Shown: positions 31,503 to 38,155 of the stretch, one piece after another
Layout of the letters: each line of letters starts with the position of its first letter
Position numbering within the stretch: position 1 is the first letter of the stretch
Virus record (IMG/VR): IMGVR_UViG_2511231131_000008
DNA from: a virus
Taxonomy: Duplodnaviria > Heunggongvirae > Uroviricota > Caudoviricetes
Reading direction: 5' to 3' (one strand)
Length of the DNA: 46,763 nt
The notes under the pieces: model-generated
The model's database searches: none
The model's input: the letters and a program-made list of their open reading frames with translations, nothing else
Told to the model about the DNA's origin: nothing
Translations under genes and position numbers: made by a program

Positions 31503-31670
31503 TCAAGCATTATGCAGGCTGTTTCTTTTTATCACCGGCCACAGCAATACCACAATGCCGCAGACCAGCCCCCCATCCGCCAGCACCGACATGATTCTGC
31601 TGGTGAAATCCACCATCACCACCAGAAACAGCAGGAGTGCAGCCACAGCCAGGCGCAGTTTTACCGTCAC
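31503..31670 (-). CDS. Hypothetical 55-aa membrane peptide (GTG start overlapping the upstream stop)
   Basis: VTVKLRLAVAALLLFLVVMVDFTSRIMSVLADGGLVCGIVVLLWPVIKRNSLHNA; GTGA start/stop overlap with the TerB-like frame. Confidence 0.3.
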   Translation of the reverse strand: MTVKLRLAVAALLLFLVVMVDFTSRIMSVLADGGLVCGIVVLLWPVIKRNSLHNA

Positions 31671-32059
31671 AGGTGATTCTCCAGACGAAGCCCCAGAACA
31701 CCGGCAATCTCTTCCAGCACCTTGCGCTCTTCCGGCTCAATTTCGCCGTCTGCCTCCGCAATGGCCACCGCCACATCCAGCACATCTTCCGCTTCACGCG
31801 TATCGTGTTTCACATCCTCGATCTCACGTAACGCCGCACGACGACCAATTTTAAAGTTCGTATCCAGCTGACCGATAATGGTTGCGCTAATCGCATTAAT
31901 TTCTGACGTAAACGCGGACAGCGCTGGCTGATTACGCAGTACCTGTTCGATCTTCGCTTTCTAGGAAGCCTCACATTCACCATCTGCACAGGCCACCAGG
32001 TATGCGGCGTTAATCACCGCCTGTGCCAGATCGCGTTTCTCAAACTTTCCTTTTTCCGG
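31667..32059 (-). pseudogene. TerB-like domain gene remnant (no start codon, internal amber codon)
   Basis: Open frame reads ...KRDLAQAVINAAYLVACADGECEAS*KAKIEQVL...DVLDVAVAIAEADGEIEPEERKVLEEIAGVLGLRLENHL, showing the duplicated A..ADGE...E...L TerB-type motif; in-frame TAG at 31961-31963; no Met anywhere in the frame. Confidence 0.5.
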
Positions 32060-35364: not shown

Positions 35365-35578
35365 AATTCAGTTCCCTAGTCGATCCATCAAAAACACAAC
35401 CAGGCAGTAAACGCCCACAACAGCAACAACAGCCAGCGCACCTTCCATTGCCAGTGATATATCATCCGACAAATTCAGTTCCCTAGTCGATCCATCAAAA
35501 ACACAACCAGGCAGTAAACGCCCACAACAGCAACAACAGCCAGCGCACCTTCCATTGCCAGTGATATATCATCCGACA
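35365..35578. repeat. Perfect tandem duplication, 2 x 107 bp
   Basis: Unit aattcagttccctagtcgatccatcaaaaacacaaccaggcag...gtgatatatcatccgaca occurs twice back to back; each unit carries one 34-codon ORF on the minus strand. Confidence 0.85.
35368..35472 (-). CDS. Hypothetical 34-aa membrane peptide, downstream tandem copy (TTG start)
   Basis: Same coding sequence as 35475-35579; the duplication junction replaces ATG with TTG; weak AGGGA Shine-Dalgarno. Confidence 0.3.
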   Translation of the reverse strand: MSDDISLAMEGALAVVAVVGVYCLVVFLMDRLGN

Positions 35579-35579
35579 T
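35475..35579 (-). CDS. Hypothetical 34-aa membrane peptide, upstream tandem copy
   Basis: MSDDISLAMEGALAVVAVVGVYCLVVFLMDRLGN; ATG with strong AAGGAGGG Shine-Dalgarno; one TM helix. Confidence 0.45.
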   Translation of the reverse strand: MSDDISLAMEGALAVVAVVGVYCLVVFLMDRLGN

Positions 35580-35614
35580 ATTCCCTCCTTTGGTGTTAAT
35601 CCCGGCGAACGTTT

Positions 35615-35698: not shown

Positions 35699-36564
35699 TG
35701 GCGCACCTCCTGCGGCGGTTCTGGTAGAGGCATCCAGTGTGATGGTATCCACGACGCACCAGGTATTATCCACCCATCATTAGCGTCAGGATGCCCCGGG
35801 ATGTAAGTCGCCCATTTCATTCGCCAGTCACCTTTCCTGCCAAAATCCCTGGCAACAAGAACGGCTGTTTTGGTATCCGGCATTCGCTCACTACAGCTTA
35901 TCCAACTATCCGGAGTTACCGGATAGTTGCCCGATAGTGCATTCTGCTCCAGTGATGCTTTTACAAACCACGCTGCCTGAACTATAACGCCATGAATCCA
36001 GCGCAAATCAGCATCGCGATCTTTCTTTTTCATCTTTTCGCCACTTAAGGCCTTGCTTATGTGGCTGCGTACCAGGTCTTCATGTAATTCCTTCGCCTCC
36101 TCAATGGTGAAACCACCAGGCAGAAGAGCCGGAGTTACCGGAGAGCTGGTTGACGCTTCCGGGATTTTCCGAAAATTATTGGTTGACGAATCTTTATTTT
36201 CCCGAAAGTTTCCGGACTGAAGCATGGCTTCGCGGCAATCGTTCCAGCCTGTAGCGTATGCAGTCGCTTTGCTGCTGCCTTCAACTGGCGCATCCTGCCA
36301 ATACATTTCTTCCGGCACTATCGGCGCTGGAGGGGCGGCAAATAGATATCCGCCAAAGTCAGGAAGCTCTCTAATGGCCTGTACGAATTTTTGTTTGCCT
36401 ACGTCAACCCCTAATGGGTAATGAGCTATAATCTTTGCCACCGGCTCTGCTTCCAGCGATGCCAGCGCAATCCGTGCCAGTTCCATTTGTTCACCACGGG
36501 TAAGCCCGTTTTCAAGCGGATTTTTAATGAACAATTCAATACGTTCTTTGGTAATAGTGGTCAT
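35695..36564 (-). CDS. DUF551-domain phage protein
   Basis: 289 aa; C-terminal ...WISCSERMPD...GWIIPGASWIPSHWMPLPEPP resembles the DUF551 signature as recalled. Confidence 0.6.
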   Translation of the reverse strand: MTTITKERIELFIKNPLENGLTRGEQMELARIALASLEAEPVAKIIAHYPLGVDVGKQKFVQAIRELPDFGGYLFAAPPAPIVPEEMYWQDAPVEGSSKATAYATGWNDCREAMLQSGNFRENKDSSTNNFRKIPEASTSSPVTPALLPGGFTIEEAKELHEDLVRSHISKALSGEKMKKKDRDADLRWIHGVIVQAAWFVKASLEQNALSGNYPVTPDSWISCSERMPDTKTAVLVARDFGRKGDWRMKWATYIPGHPDANDGWIIPGASWIPSHWMPLPEPPQEVRQ

Positions 36565-36574
36565 GTGTTACTCC

Positions 36575-36838
36575 TTAACCCGCAGTGCTTTCAACTGATG
36601 AGGGGAACAAAATCTTTTCATCAAACCCTGCATTCATATCATGAACAGCAACACACCAATCCATCGACGAACGATTATCAAGAGCCTCCATGATTTCATC
36701 CATGCGGCGTAGGTCATACAGGTAAATGCTTTTATCGCCAATGGTGTAAAAGCCAATTTTTTTCGGTGATGGACAGCGATCAAGAACTTCCTGTAATTCG
36801 TTCAACCATGCCCGTTCTTTTTTTGTCAAAGTTGCCAT
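36575..36838 (-). CDS. Hypothetical nin-region protein
   Basis: 87 aa from ATG 36838 with AAGGA Shine-Dalgarno. Confidence 0.5.
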   Translation of the reverse strand: MATLTKKERAWLNELQEVLDRCPSPKKIGFYTIGDKSIYLYDLRRMDEIMEALDNRSSMDWCVAVHDMNAGFDEKILFPSSVESTAG

Positions 36839-36839
36839 A

Positions 36840-37058
36840 TCAGTTTTCCTTATACGGATTAATTTTATTGTGCAGTGTGTTGAATGACGCCCATACCACG
36901 TCGTTATACAATTCAATAACTGGCTCAATTATTTTTCCGATTATCCAGGCTAGGATTAACGGGGATATCGGTATCATCAACACGATAAACAGAATGAGAA
37001 ACAGAAATTCTGTTGTTCTACTCTTTCGCGGATATTTTTTTCTAAATAATGTGACCAT
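36840..37058 (-). CDS. Hypothetical small membrane protein
   Basis: 72 aa with a central hydrophobic helix (FLFLILFIVLMIPISPLILAWIIG); stop abuts the next gene start. Confidence 0.45.
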   Translation of the reverse strand: MVTLFRKKYPRKSRTTEFLFLILFIVLMIPISPLILAWIIGKIIEPVIELYNDVVWASFNTLHNKINPYKEN

Positions 37059-37090: not shown

Positions 37091-37303
37091 TTAATCGTTG
37101 TGATAACTCATAGCTTCATTTGCAGCATCAACTGGATCAACCTCCCTCCAGCAATAATTTGGGTCGGCTCCTTCAGGCGTCCACGGTTCTAATTCATTTT
37201 TTGCCGCATTCTCATCGCCAGTAATTTTAAAAATCTGCTCAGAGAATTTTCTTGCCCACTCGTTATATTTTTCCGCATTAATGGCTTTCTGTGTATTTAA
37301 CAT
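37091..37303 (-). CDS. Hypothetical small protein
   Basis: 70-aa ORF in the operon series. Confidence 0.45.
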   Translation of the reverse strand: MLNTQKAINAEKYNEWARKFSEQIFKITGDENAAKNELEPWTPEGADPNYCWREVDPVDAANEAMSYHND

Positions 37304-37353: not shown

Positions 37354-37733
37354 TTATTCAGTTCTGGATTTTGTCGCCCTGCGTATCCGCGCTTTCGCGT
37401 TACGCTCAATCTGAATTAACTTTTCTATATTTTTCCGCCTTTCCTGTTCCTCCTGGCGCAATAGCCTTACATCATCTGCCAGTCTGTTTTCTCTTTTCGC
37501 CACAGAGAGCATCCAGTCAAACGGCTCCACAACTGCACCGCAGATTTTACAGCGGACCTGACGCTCTTTTTCGTCAACCCGAACAGAGGCGTGATGGCAA
37601 TATGGTCTTTCCGATGGCTCATAAAGAAAATTAACCTGATTACGAGGGTTGGATTTGCCCCTATATTTCCATGCTCCTCTCCTTTGATGCGAATGCCAGC
37701 GGTAATTGAAGCCTGATAGCTAATTTCACTCAC
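37354..37733 (-). pseudogene. Probable frameshifted gene (frame A 37467-37733 plus frame -1 37354-37719 encoding a zinc-ribbon/coiled-coil segment)
   Basis: Frame A starts at GTG 37733 with an AGGAGG Shine-Dalgarno and GTGA overlap with the upstream stop; the overlapping -1 frame stays open for 121 codons (...PYCHHASVRVDEKERQVRCKICGAVVEPFDW...RLLRQEEQERRKNIEKLIQIERNAKARIRR...) with no usable start. Confidence 0.35.
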
Positions 37734-38155
37734 AGTACCGCCTCCTGAAAATTACCCTGATAGAAAGCCAGTACACGCTGCATAGCTTCACTCTTCCGGC
37801 ACTCGCGACAGATTATGTTTAGGCGACTGTCGTAGCGGCGTATTTCGCCGTCTGGTAACGACCAGATAAGGTCCGGATCAACCACAGATGTTTTTTTCTT
37901 CAGCTTTGCCCTTGAGAGTTTTTTGCGGGCGTTTTGCCAGTCCTTACGAGCCTGTTCAGACGGGAATAACCCGTAACCAGAGTTGTATACATCGCCACTG
38001 GCAACCAGCTCTCTGGCGAGAACGCTCATCAGATATCTTGTCGCACCTGTTTTCGCTTCCAGTTGTCGTAACGTCTCACGCCCACTCTGGCGCACGAGTT
38101 CAACAACTTGCCTCTTAATTTTTTCCCGCTCTTCTTGTGTAAATACTTTTGCCAC
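37730..38155 (-). CDS. Hypothetical protein downstream of the O-like gene
   Basis: 141 aa (MAKVFTQEEREKIKRQVVELVRQSGRETLRQLEAKTGATRYLMSVLAREL...); function not recognised. Confidence 0.5.
   Translation of the reverse strand: MAKVFTQEEREKIKRQVVELVRQSGRETLRQLEAKTGATRYLMSVLARELVASGDVYNSGYGLFPSEQARKDWQNARKKLSRAKLKKKTSVVDPDLIWSLPDGEIRRYDSRLNIICRECRKSEAMQRVLAFYQGNFQEAVL

What the first reader, a model, noticed from the sequence alone, without database searches (positions are those of the whole stretch)
37354..37733. Probable frameshifted nin-region gene (or programmed -1 shift)
An ORF with an excellent start context (AGGAGG, GTG, GTGA overlap with the upstream stop) runs 88 codons in frame A, while the overlapping -1 frame is open for 121 codons and encodes a more protein-like zinc-ribbon plus basic coiled-coil segment without any usable start. 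The simplest reading is an ancestral gene of about 125 aa disrupted by a 1-nt indel. A G-AAA-AAG-like run lies in the overlap but is not a canonical slippery heptamer.
Basis: seen in the sequence. Interest (0 to 1): 0.45.

Follow-up and report, generated by a model that had tools for sequence, protein, structure and literature searches.

The report
Prophage gene killed by IS2 scar
This is an ordinary dead gene in an E. coli prophage: a small zinc-ribbon gene lost its beginning when an IS2 jumping gene landed in it and was later deleted imprecisely, leaving 14 bases of IS2 behind; it is neither a one-base frameshift nor programmed ribosomal frameshifting.

Summary
On the minus strand an 88-codon GTG ORF (37733-37467) overlaps a 121-codon open frame (to TAA at 37354) that encodes a zinc ribbon and a basic helix but has no usable start.

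Intact orthologues encode a 118-aa protein (phrog_1621, function unknown) that starts at its own SD+ATG (window 37672-37670) in a third frame. The frame A GTG is not its start.

In the window, 52 native bases after codon 3 are replaced by 14 bases (TAGGGGCAAATCCA). Together with the native TGGAAATA, these form the exact outer 22 bp of the published IS2 right inverted repeat. The IS2 transposase stop codon now closes the gene after Met-Glu-Ile.

E. coli strain B2.3 has a complete 1,331-bp IS2 in the intact gene, 1 bp away and in the opposite orientation. An in-silico test reproduces the window junction exactly: IS2 insertion at ACCCT, then a 1,374-bp deletion between the two 8-bp TGGAAATA repeats.

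Frame A is a by-product: a 27-codon leader reading frame fused by the scar to an alternative frame that happens to be open. There is no canonical slippery heptamer and no downstream structure, and no homologue keeps the two-frame layout.

RefSeq already annotates the identical stretch as a pseudogene. Interest is low.

The parts
37730..38155 (-). Upstream intact gene, DUF977 family ('LygF'). Its TGA stop overlaps the GTG of the leader/frame A ORF.
   Evidence: ORF list. RefSeq annotation of the identical O55:H7 DEC5D stretch, WP_001151255.1.
37467..37733 (-). 'Frame A' ORF of 88 codons. It is an artefact: 23 codons of the leader reading frame that follows LygF, then the IS2 scar, then an out-of-frame read of the zinc-ribbon gene.
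   Evidence: In intact alleles this frame ends after 27 codons (MSEISYQASITAGIRIKGEEHGNKTRG*). Only residues 2-23 hit anything (phrog_37408/19884).
37664..37684 (-). Native ribosome-binding site (AAGGAGAGGAG) and the first three codons (ATG GAA ATA = M-E-I, 37672-37664) of the ancestral 118-aa gene, in a third reading frame.
   Evidence: Alignment to intact alleles. The same start is used downstream of three different upstream genes. Distant homologues start at the equivalent position.
37650..37671 (-). 22 nt identical to the outer tip of the IS2 right inverted repeat (TGGAAATATAGGGGCAAATCCA). 37671-37664 (TGGAAATA) is shared with the native gene (8-nt microhomology). 37663-37650 (TAGGGGCAAATCCA) is IS2-only sequence. 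TAG at 37663-37661 is the IS2 transposase stop, now in frame with the gene's ATG.
   Evidence: Exact match to the IS2 copies in L011 and L012 and to the published 41-bp IRR (PMC3219604, PMC3299598). The 15-mer is unique in the window.
37354..37649 (-). Surviving 3' part of the gene: 2 nt of codon 21, then codons 22-118 and the TAA stop. It encodes the C-x-H...C-x-x-C zinc ribbon and the long basic helix and has no usable start. RefSeq's pseudogene feature corresponds to 37354-37656.
   Evidence: phrog_1621 E=1.4e-46. Sub-threshold Pfam Zn_Ribbon_TF. AlphaFold model of the intact protein.
37566..37572 (-). It encodes D-E-K-E of the conserved (V/N)EK(E/D)R motif in the true frame and is not a functional slippery site.
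   Evidence: The downstream fold is not different from shuffles.
37091..37303 (-). Next intact downstream gene (70-aa hypothetical protein), which bounds the locus.

Best explanation
The locus is a pseudogene of a 118-aa zinc-ribbon/coiled-coil early-region protein of lambdoid prophages (PHROG 1621, function unknown), inactivated by an IS2 'footprint'.

Step 1 (inferred; strongly supported). IS2 inserted into codons 21-22 of the gene, in the same orientation as the gene. Its right end (IRR) abutted ACCCTCGTAAT, and the presumed 5-bp target duplication was ACCCT.

Step 2 (inferred). A 1,374-bp deletion occurred between two 8-bp direct repeats, TGGAAATA. One repeat is the gene's own start region (A-TGG-AAA-TA). 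The other lies 14 bp inside the IS2 right end (C-TGG-AAA-TA-TAG, the last codons of the transposase). The likely mechanism is replication slippage or microhomology-mediated joining, possibly stimulated by transposase or IEE. The deletion removed 1,309 bp of IS2, one repeat copy, and 57 bp of gene plus duplicated target.

Result (shown). The gene now reads ATG GAA ATA TAG. It lacks residues 4-21, which include the family-invariant E8, F15 and P16. The remaining 97 codons are in a different frame and have no start codon upstream of the zinc site. The 88-codon 'frame A' ORF is a side product: the scar shifts the short leader reading frame that follows the LygF stop into an alternative frame of the gene that happens to lack stops.
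For: - Alignment to intact alleles shows 53 nt replaced by 15 nt immediately after codon 3. Resolved to the base, this is 52 native nt lost and 14 foreign nt gained.
- The 22 nt at 37671-37650 equal the last 22 nt of IS2 in two genomes and of the published IRR 5'-TTAAGTGATAACAGATGTCTGGAAATATAGGGGCAAATCCA-3'. The match ends exactly at the IS2 terminus.
- Strain B2.3 carries a complete 1,331-bp IS2 with target duplication CCCTC in an otherwise intact copy of the gene, 1 bp from the window's junction, so this site is a real IS2 target.
- The in-silico reconstruction (intact E41 allele, plus IS2, plus deletion between the only two TGGAAATA copies) gives the window sequence, with only 5 allelic SNPs away from the junction.
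- The true start is fixed by three upstream contexts and by homologue N-termini.
- The allele is real and inherited. The identical junction is in 10 of 5,426 complete E. coli genomes (11 places), 3 IMG/VR contigs and 1 metagenome contig.
- RefSeq annotates the identical stretch as a pseudogene 'missing N-terminus'.
- Microhomology-bounded IS losses that leave or intrude into IS ends are documented for copy-out-paste-in IS elements (bioRxiv 10.1101/2023.06.07.543989).
Against: - No genome or contig with the complete IS2 in the same orientation at this site (the postulated intermediate) was found in 5,426 E. coli genomes, IMG/VR or the metagenome collection.
- The target duplication cannot be verified, because one copy would have been deleted.
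- Which enzymatic route made the deletion (simple slippage, transposase- or IEE-assisted) cannot be read from the sequence.
- Whether the frame A ORF or any fragment is translated was not tested.
Confidence: 0.9

Rival explanations
1. Simple frameshift pseudogene: an ancestral ~125-aa gene starting at the frame A GTG was disrupted by a 1-nt indel.
For: Two overlapping open frames, with a good start context on frame A only.
Against: - Intact orthologues differ from the window by a 52-nt loss and a 14-nt gain, not by 1 nt.
- Their protein starts at the ATG at 37672 in a third frame.
- Frame A stops after 27 codons in intact alleles.
- Frame A residues beyond 23 have no homologues.
Confidence: 0.01
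2. Programmed -1 ribosomal frameshifting from frame A into the zinc-ribbon frame at G-AAA-AAG yields a functional fusion protein.
For: - A lysine-codon run in the correct phase.
- Frame A has a strong SD and is translationally coupled to the upstream gene.
Against: - There is no canonical X_XXY_YYZ heptamer.
- The downstream RNA folds no better than shuffles (z=-0.46).
- The same run is present in intact single-frame alleles, where it simply encodes the conserved DEKE.
- The shifted product would lack C38/H40 and the invariant N-terminal motif.
- The layout exists only in the rare scar allele (10 of 5,426 genomes).
Confidence: 0.01
3. Sequencing or assembly artefact at this position.
For: Many database entries of this family are frameshifted or fused variants from draft assemblies.
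Against: The junction is identical in 10 independently finished genomes of different serotypes and hosts, in two copies in one genome, and in 4 further contigs. The foreign 14 nt are a specific IS2 end, not noise.
Confidence: 0.01
4. Mosaic recombination junction: the 14-15 nt come from a divergent allele or N-terminal module of the gene rather than from IS2, and the resemblance to the IS2 tip is a coincidence.
For: Lambdoid phages are highly mosaic. A module boundary lies only ~30 nt upstream of the ATG.
Against: - None of the 117 homologous proteins contains the residues the filler would encode (GKSNP, YRGK).
- A low-stringency search of all E. coli genomes finds the filler only in the scar allele and at IS2 ends.
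- The identity stops exactly at the IS2 terminus and at a demonstrated IS2 target.
Confidence: 0.03

Closest known systems
IS loss by microhomology-bounded deletion ('nearly precise/imprecise excision'), as described for IS3-family IS629 with IEE and for ISApl1 loss from Tn6330 (Kusumoto 2011 and Snesrud 2018, as summarised in bioRxiv 10.1101/2023.06.07.543989)
   Same: - A copy-out-paste-in IS (IS2, IS3 family) has disappeared from its insertion site.
- The deletion end-points lie in a short direct repeat.
- One end-point intrudes into the IS end, so a short IS remnant is left.
- The deletion size (1,374 bp) is close to the IS length (1,331 bp).
   Different: - The microhomology here is 8 bp, against the 2-4 bp reported for ISApl1.
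- 57 bp of flanking gene were also lost.
- Involvement of IEE or transposase is not demonstrated.
- The event is inferred from a natural allele, not observed experimentally.
IS2 (IS3 family; 1,331 bp, 41-bp IRR, 42-bp IRL; PMC3219604, PMC3299598)
   Same: The window carries the exact outer 22 bp of the IRR, ending in ...TCCA-3', at a site where a complete IS2 is found in another strain.
   Different: Only a 14-22 bp remnant is present. There is no transposase, no IRL and no target duplication, so it is a scar and not an element.
PHROG 1621 / WP_024249813.1-type 118-aa hypothetical proteins of lambdoid and Rac-like prophages (e.g. ArgO145 gp17, YP_009907882.1)
   Same: 97 of the 118 codons are retained at about 96-98% amino-acid identity. 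The genomic position is the same, downstream of LygF/DUF977 or Ea22 in the early region.
   Different: The start region is severed and residues 4-21 are lost, including the invariant E8, F15 and P16. It is not a functional member.
dnaX / IS3-type programmed -1 frameshift sites (A_AAA_AAG plus a downstream stem-loop)
   Same: A lysine-codon run (G_AAA_AAG) lies in the right phase within a two-frame overlap.
   Different: The first position breaks the heptamer. There is no stimulatory structure and no conservation of the overlap, and the product would be non-functional.

Membership tests
Programmed -1 ribosomal frameshift site | Canonical slippery heptamer X_XXY_YYZ in the upstream (0) frame | tested here: not met
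   No such heptamer anywhere in frame A. The only candidate is G_AAA_AAG at 37572-37566.
Programmed -1 ribosomal frameshift site | Stimulatory RNA structure 5-9 nt downstream of the slip site | tested here: not met
   The 76 nt downstream fold at -22 kcal/mol against a shuffle mean of -20.7, z=-0.46.
Programmed -1 ribosomal frameshift site | Two-frame arrangement conserved among homologues | tested here: not met
   Intact homologues encode the protein in one frame. Frame A closes after 27 codons.
IS2 terminal remnant (scar) | Sequence identity to the IS2 inverted-repeat tip, ending at the element's terminal ...CA-3' | tested here: met
   22/22 identity to the last 22 bp of IS2 in L011 and L012 and to the published IRR.
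IS2 terminal remnant (scar) | Location at a bona fide IS2 insertion site | tested here: met
   Complete IS2 with 5-bp duplication CCCTC, 1 bp away, in the same gene in strain B2.3.
IS2 terminal remnant (scar) | 5-bp target-site duplication flanking the element | not testable with these tools
   The left copy would lie within the deleted segment. Only the right copy (ACCCT) remains.
IS2 terminal remnant (scar) | Existence of the un-deleted intermediate (complete IS2, same orientation, same site) | tested here: not met
   Not found in 5,426 E. coli genomes, IMG/VR or metagenome contigs. Absence does not refute the model but leaves this step inferred.
PHROG 1621 zinc-ribbon protein (functional member) | Intact ORF with its own start codon | tested here: not met
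   ATG GAA ATA TAG. The next in-frame start, GTG at 37530, lies past C38/H40.
PHROG 1621 zinc-ribbon protein (functional member) | N-terminal E-L-x-N-V/I-V-x-F-P motif (invariant E8, F15, P16) | tested here: not met
   Residues 4-21 are deleted. The motif is invariant in 29 diverse homologues.
PHROG 1621 zinc-ribbon protein (functional member) | C38/H40/C54/C57 zinc site and conserved basic C-terminal helix | tested here: met
   Present in the residual open frame. The model shows a beta-hairpin ribbon plus helix 63-117.
Pfam PF08271 Zn_Ribbon_TF (TFIIB-type zinc ribbon) | Score at or above the gathering threshold (29 bits) | tested here: not met
   21.5 bits, E=1.6e-4. Foldseek best hit is the TFIIB N-terminal ribbon, 27 columns, E=0.12. 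It resembles the fold but is not a curated member.

The most novel reading that the evidence does not exclude
Two unexcluded readings carry some novelty.

(a) The site CCTCGTAWTYAGGTKAATTT is a sequence-specific hot spot for IS2. Three independent insertions use it or a look-alike: the window scar, strain B2.3 in the opposite orientation, and an unrelated phage locus in FDAARGOS_1285 with a 17/21 identical flank. IS2 has been said to select targets by DNA curvature rather than by sequence.

(b) The scar created a new, well-initiated 88-codon ORF, translationally coupled to LygF, that is expressed as a de novo peptide in O55:H7 prophages.

Neither reading makes the locus a programmed frameshift.
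Probability: 0.2. Interest if true: 0.3.

Novelty: already known. Interest (0 to 1): 0.12.

Why it matters
It matters little for biology at large. The finding removes a candidate recoding site and shows that the apparent two-frame gene is prophage decay.

It has modest value in three ways:
- It is a clean natural example of an IS2 footprint left by an 8-bp microhomology deletion, with an independent complete IS2 at the same spot in another strain. This is useful for annotators: RefSeq flags the pseudogene but not its cause.
- It corrects the start codon of a widespread prophage gene family found in about 44% of complete E. coli genomes. Phage records often annotate a 137-aa GTG-initiated form, whereas the conserved start gives 118 aa.
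- It hints at an IS2 target preference.

Tried and rejected
1. Local origin of the filler by template switching: the 15-mer occurs only once in the window, even with 2 mismatches allowed.
2. A divergent N-terminal module as the source of the filler: none of the 117 homologues carries the encoded residues.
3. Search for the un-deleted intermediate (IS2 in the same orientation): not found in E. coli genomes, viral contigs or metagenome contigs. All extra hits are the same scar allele.
4. Functional assignment of the ancestral protein:
   - Pfam gave only a sub-threshold zinc ribbon.
   - NCBIfam gave nothing.
   - PADLOC gave nothing.
   - A PDB sequence-profile search gave nothing.
   - The AlphaFold model (mean pLDDT 74) plus Foldseek against the PDB recovered only the generic TFIIB ribbon.
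   - Gene neighbourhoods in Klebsiella, Serratia and Enterobacter phages place it among nin/Ea22-type early accessory genes and give no functional clue.
5. An overlapping gene in the alternative frame: the 63-codon open run is marginal (p=0.037), and comparable runs occur in distant homologues with unrelated sequence, so this was rejected as a composition effect.
6. Stimulatory RNA structure for frameshifting: none.
7. I did not test whether the scar-bearing genomes encode IEE. Because the prophage moves between hosts, presence or absence now would not date or explain the event.

Full report
**Context.** The window is a complete lambdoid (Rac-like early region) prophage. It is 99.0-99.8% identical to one in E. 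coli O55:H7 DEC5D. The genes of interest lie on the minus strand, in this order: YdaT-family toxin, replisome organizer, DUF977/LygF (37730-38155), the locus in question, a 70-aa ORF (37091-37303), DUF4014, and DUF551 fragments.

**Observation.**
- An 88-codon ORF (frame A) runs from GTG at 37733 to the stop at 37467. AGGAGG lies 7 nt upstream, and the GTG overlaps the LygF stop (GTGA).
- The -1 frame is open for 121 codons, down to TAA at 37356-37354. Its first canonical start is GTG at 37530.
- G-AAA-AAG lies at 37572-37566, in frame A phase.

The -1 frame is clearly the genuine coding frame: it matches phrog_1621 at E=1.4e-46 and 117 database proteins. Frame A has no homologues beyond its first 23 residues.

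**What intact relatives look like.**
- About 970 of 5,426 complete E. coli genomes match at least 80% of the 501-nt region. Apart from the ten top matches, the listed matches (the next 20) span 539 nt instead of 501.
- In E. coli E41 (WP_024249813.1), phage ArgO145 gp17 and phage vB_EcoS-689R5, the gene is a single 118-codon ORF, MEIKPEDELSNIVLFPVKEDDPRNQ....
- The conserved DNA module begins about 30 nt upstream of this ATG/GTG, whichever gene precedes it (LygF or either of two different Ea22 genes). Distant homologues from Klebsiella, Kluyvera, Erwinia, Yokenella, Salmonella and Morganella begin at the equivalent position.
- The true start is therefore the ATG at window 37672-37670, preceded by AAGGAGAGGAG.
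- In intact alleles frame A is only a 27-codon leader reading frame ending in TGA.

**The lesion.**
- Immediately after codon 3 the window has 15 nt where intact alleles have 53.
- A low-stringency search with the junction found the same 23 nt at the end of an IS3-family transposase gene.
- That element has inverted repeats and is 1,331 bp long. It is IS2, and the published 41-bp IRR is 5'-TTAAGTGATAACAGATGTCTGGAAATATAGGGGCAAATCCA-3' (PMC3219604 and PMC3299598).
- Window 37671-37650 equals its outer 22 bp, ending exactly at the IS2 terminus. The first 8 of these (TGGAAATA) are also native gene sequence (A-TGG-AAA-TA). The other 14 (TAGGGGCAAATCCA) are foreign.
- Resolved to the base, 52 native nt (codons 4-20 and the first base of codon 21) are lost and 14 IS2 nt are gained, a net change of -38.
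- The TAG is the IS2 transposase stop codon, and it now terminates the gene after Met-Glu-Ile.

**Independent support.**
- Strain B2.3 carries a complete IS2 (annotated 'IS3-like element IS2 family transposase') in an otherwise intact copy of the gene. It has a 5-bp target duplication (CCCTC), lies 1 bp from the window's junction, and is in the opposite orientation. It is therefore an independent event at the same site, and it is unique to that genome.
- I built the hypothetical intermediate in silico: the E41 allele plus IS2 in gene orientation with duplication ACCCT. Deleting between the only two TGGAAATA copies removes 1,374 bp, and the product equals the window sequence apart from five allelic SNPs far from the junction.
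- Microhomology-bounded loss of copy-out-paste-in IS elements, sometimes intruding into the IS end and with deletion sizes near the IS length, is documented. It is stimulated by transposase and by the IEE protein of EHEC-lineage E. coli (bioRxiv 10.1101/2023.06.07.543989).
- Which route acted here cannot be told from the sequence.
- The same-orientation intermediate was not found in any collection, so step 1 remains an inference, although a strong one.

**The allele is real.** The identical junction occurs in several places.
- It occurs in 10 complete genomes, in 11 places:
  - four O55:H7-labelled strains (CB9615, DEC5A, DEC5D, TB182A);
  - 2013C-4465 and FDAARGOS_946;
  - two dog isolates and one pig isolate;
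  - EPSSH018, which carries it twice.
- It also occurs in 3 IMG/VR contigs and 1 metagenome contig.
- RefSeq annotates the identical stretch as a pseudogene, 'incomplete; missing N-terminus'.

**Why frame A looks good.** Its start context belongs to the leader that follows LygF. The -38 nt scar shifts that leader into the +1 alternative frame of the gene, which is open for 63 codons even in intact alleles. That run is only marginally unusual (p=0.037 against codon shuffles). Runs of 47-56 codons occur in unrelated-sequence homologues, as expected for Lys/Glu/Arg-rich coding.

**Programmed frameshifting is rejected.**
- There is no canonical heptamer.
- There is no downstream structure (z=-0.46).
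- The A-run encodes the conserved DEKE in the true frame of single-frame homologues.
- A shift there would give 56 residues of nonsense joined to a protein that lacks C38/H40 and the N-terminal motif.
- The arrangement exists only in the scar allele.

**The ancestral protein.**
- An alignment of 29 homologues at 44-88% identity shows three features: invariant E8, F15 and P16 in an N-terminal E-L-x-N-V-V-x-F-P motif; a C38/H40/C54/C57 site; and an almost invariant basic C-terminal segment, LRxEExxRRxNIEKLIQIERNAKARIRRA.
- AlphaFold (mean pLDDT 74) gives a disordered N-terminus, a beta-hairpin zinc ribbon and one long, confident helix at residues 63-117.
- Foldseek recovers only the TFIIB-type ribbon.
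- Pfam is sub-threshold. NCBIfam, PADLOC and a PDB profile search give nothing.
- My inference, not a test: this is a small, probably oligomeric, adaptor-like early protein that uses a short N-terminal peptide motif to bind a partner and a basic helix and ribbon to bind nucleic acid. Its function remains unknown.
- The window allele has lost the motif outright, so it is non-functional whatever is translated.

**Verdict.** This is an ordinary prophage pseudogene, already flagged as such in RefSeq. Its cause, an IS2 footprint, is now explained. It is neither a 1-nt frameshift nor a recoding site.

Noticed in passing
window 37649-37628 (minus strand ACCCTCGTAATCAGGTTAATTT); L012 1523-1550; L011 1523-1546: Three independent IS2 insertions sit at very similar sequence: the window scar; strain B2.3 in the opposite orientation, 1 bp away; and an unrelated phage site in FDAARGOS_1285 whose flank AATGCCTCGTATTTAGGTGAATTT is 17/21 identical to the gene flank. 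This may reflect a sequence preference of IS2.
   Followed up: partly
window 37733-37665 (minus); L002 1568-1651: In intact alleles a 27-codon leader ORF (MSEISYQASITAGIRIKGEEHGNKTRG*) starts at a GTG that overlaps the LygF stop, has an AGGAGG SD, and ends 22 nt inside the zinc-ribbon gene. It matches two tiny PHROGs (37408, 19884). Database protein P0040 is a natural in-frame fusion of this leader to the gene. Whether it is translated, or couples translation, is unknown.
   Followed up: partly
phage records L003 1572-1985 (ON470612) and similar: Several phage and protein records annotate the gene as a 137-aa form starting at a GTG (VKLAIRLQLPLAFASKERSMEIK...), or as 132-aa forms. Comparative evidence favours the 118-aa ATG/GTG start.
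   Followed up: yes
protein hits P0001, P0017, P0040, P0052, P0058, P0092, P0094, P0097, P0103, P0105: A notable share of database entries for this family are frameshifted, truncated or fused (some to Ea22, DUF1133 or DUF977-type neighbours). The gene is often decayed in prophages or mis-assembled in drafts.
   Followed up: no
window 35365-35583: A tandem duplication of roughly 107-112 nt. In DEC5D each copy is annotated as an identical 34-aa hypothetical protein, WP_001278454.1.
   Followed up: no
window ~36150-36560 and ~31670-32030 (L007 10200-10616 and 14735-15097): There is further decay in the same prophage: a split or partial DUF551 gene and a TerB-family gene with an internal stop, as annotated in the near-identical DEC5D record.
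   Followed up: no
window 9791-9994: About 200 nt do not align between the window and the otherwise 99-99.8% identical DEC5D prophage. The stretch lies around the tail assembly / C40 peptidase genes (L007 ~36770-36996), so there is local divergence or an indel.
   Followed up: no
window ~340-1550 (L007 45214-46422): An IS256-family transposase sits next to nleG7 and a DinI-like gene at the far end of the prophage. It shows that other IS activity has affected this element.
   Followed up: no
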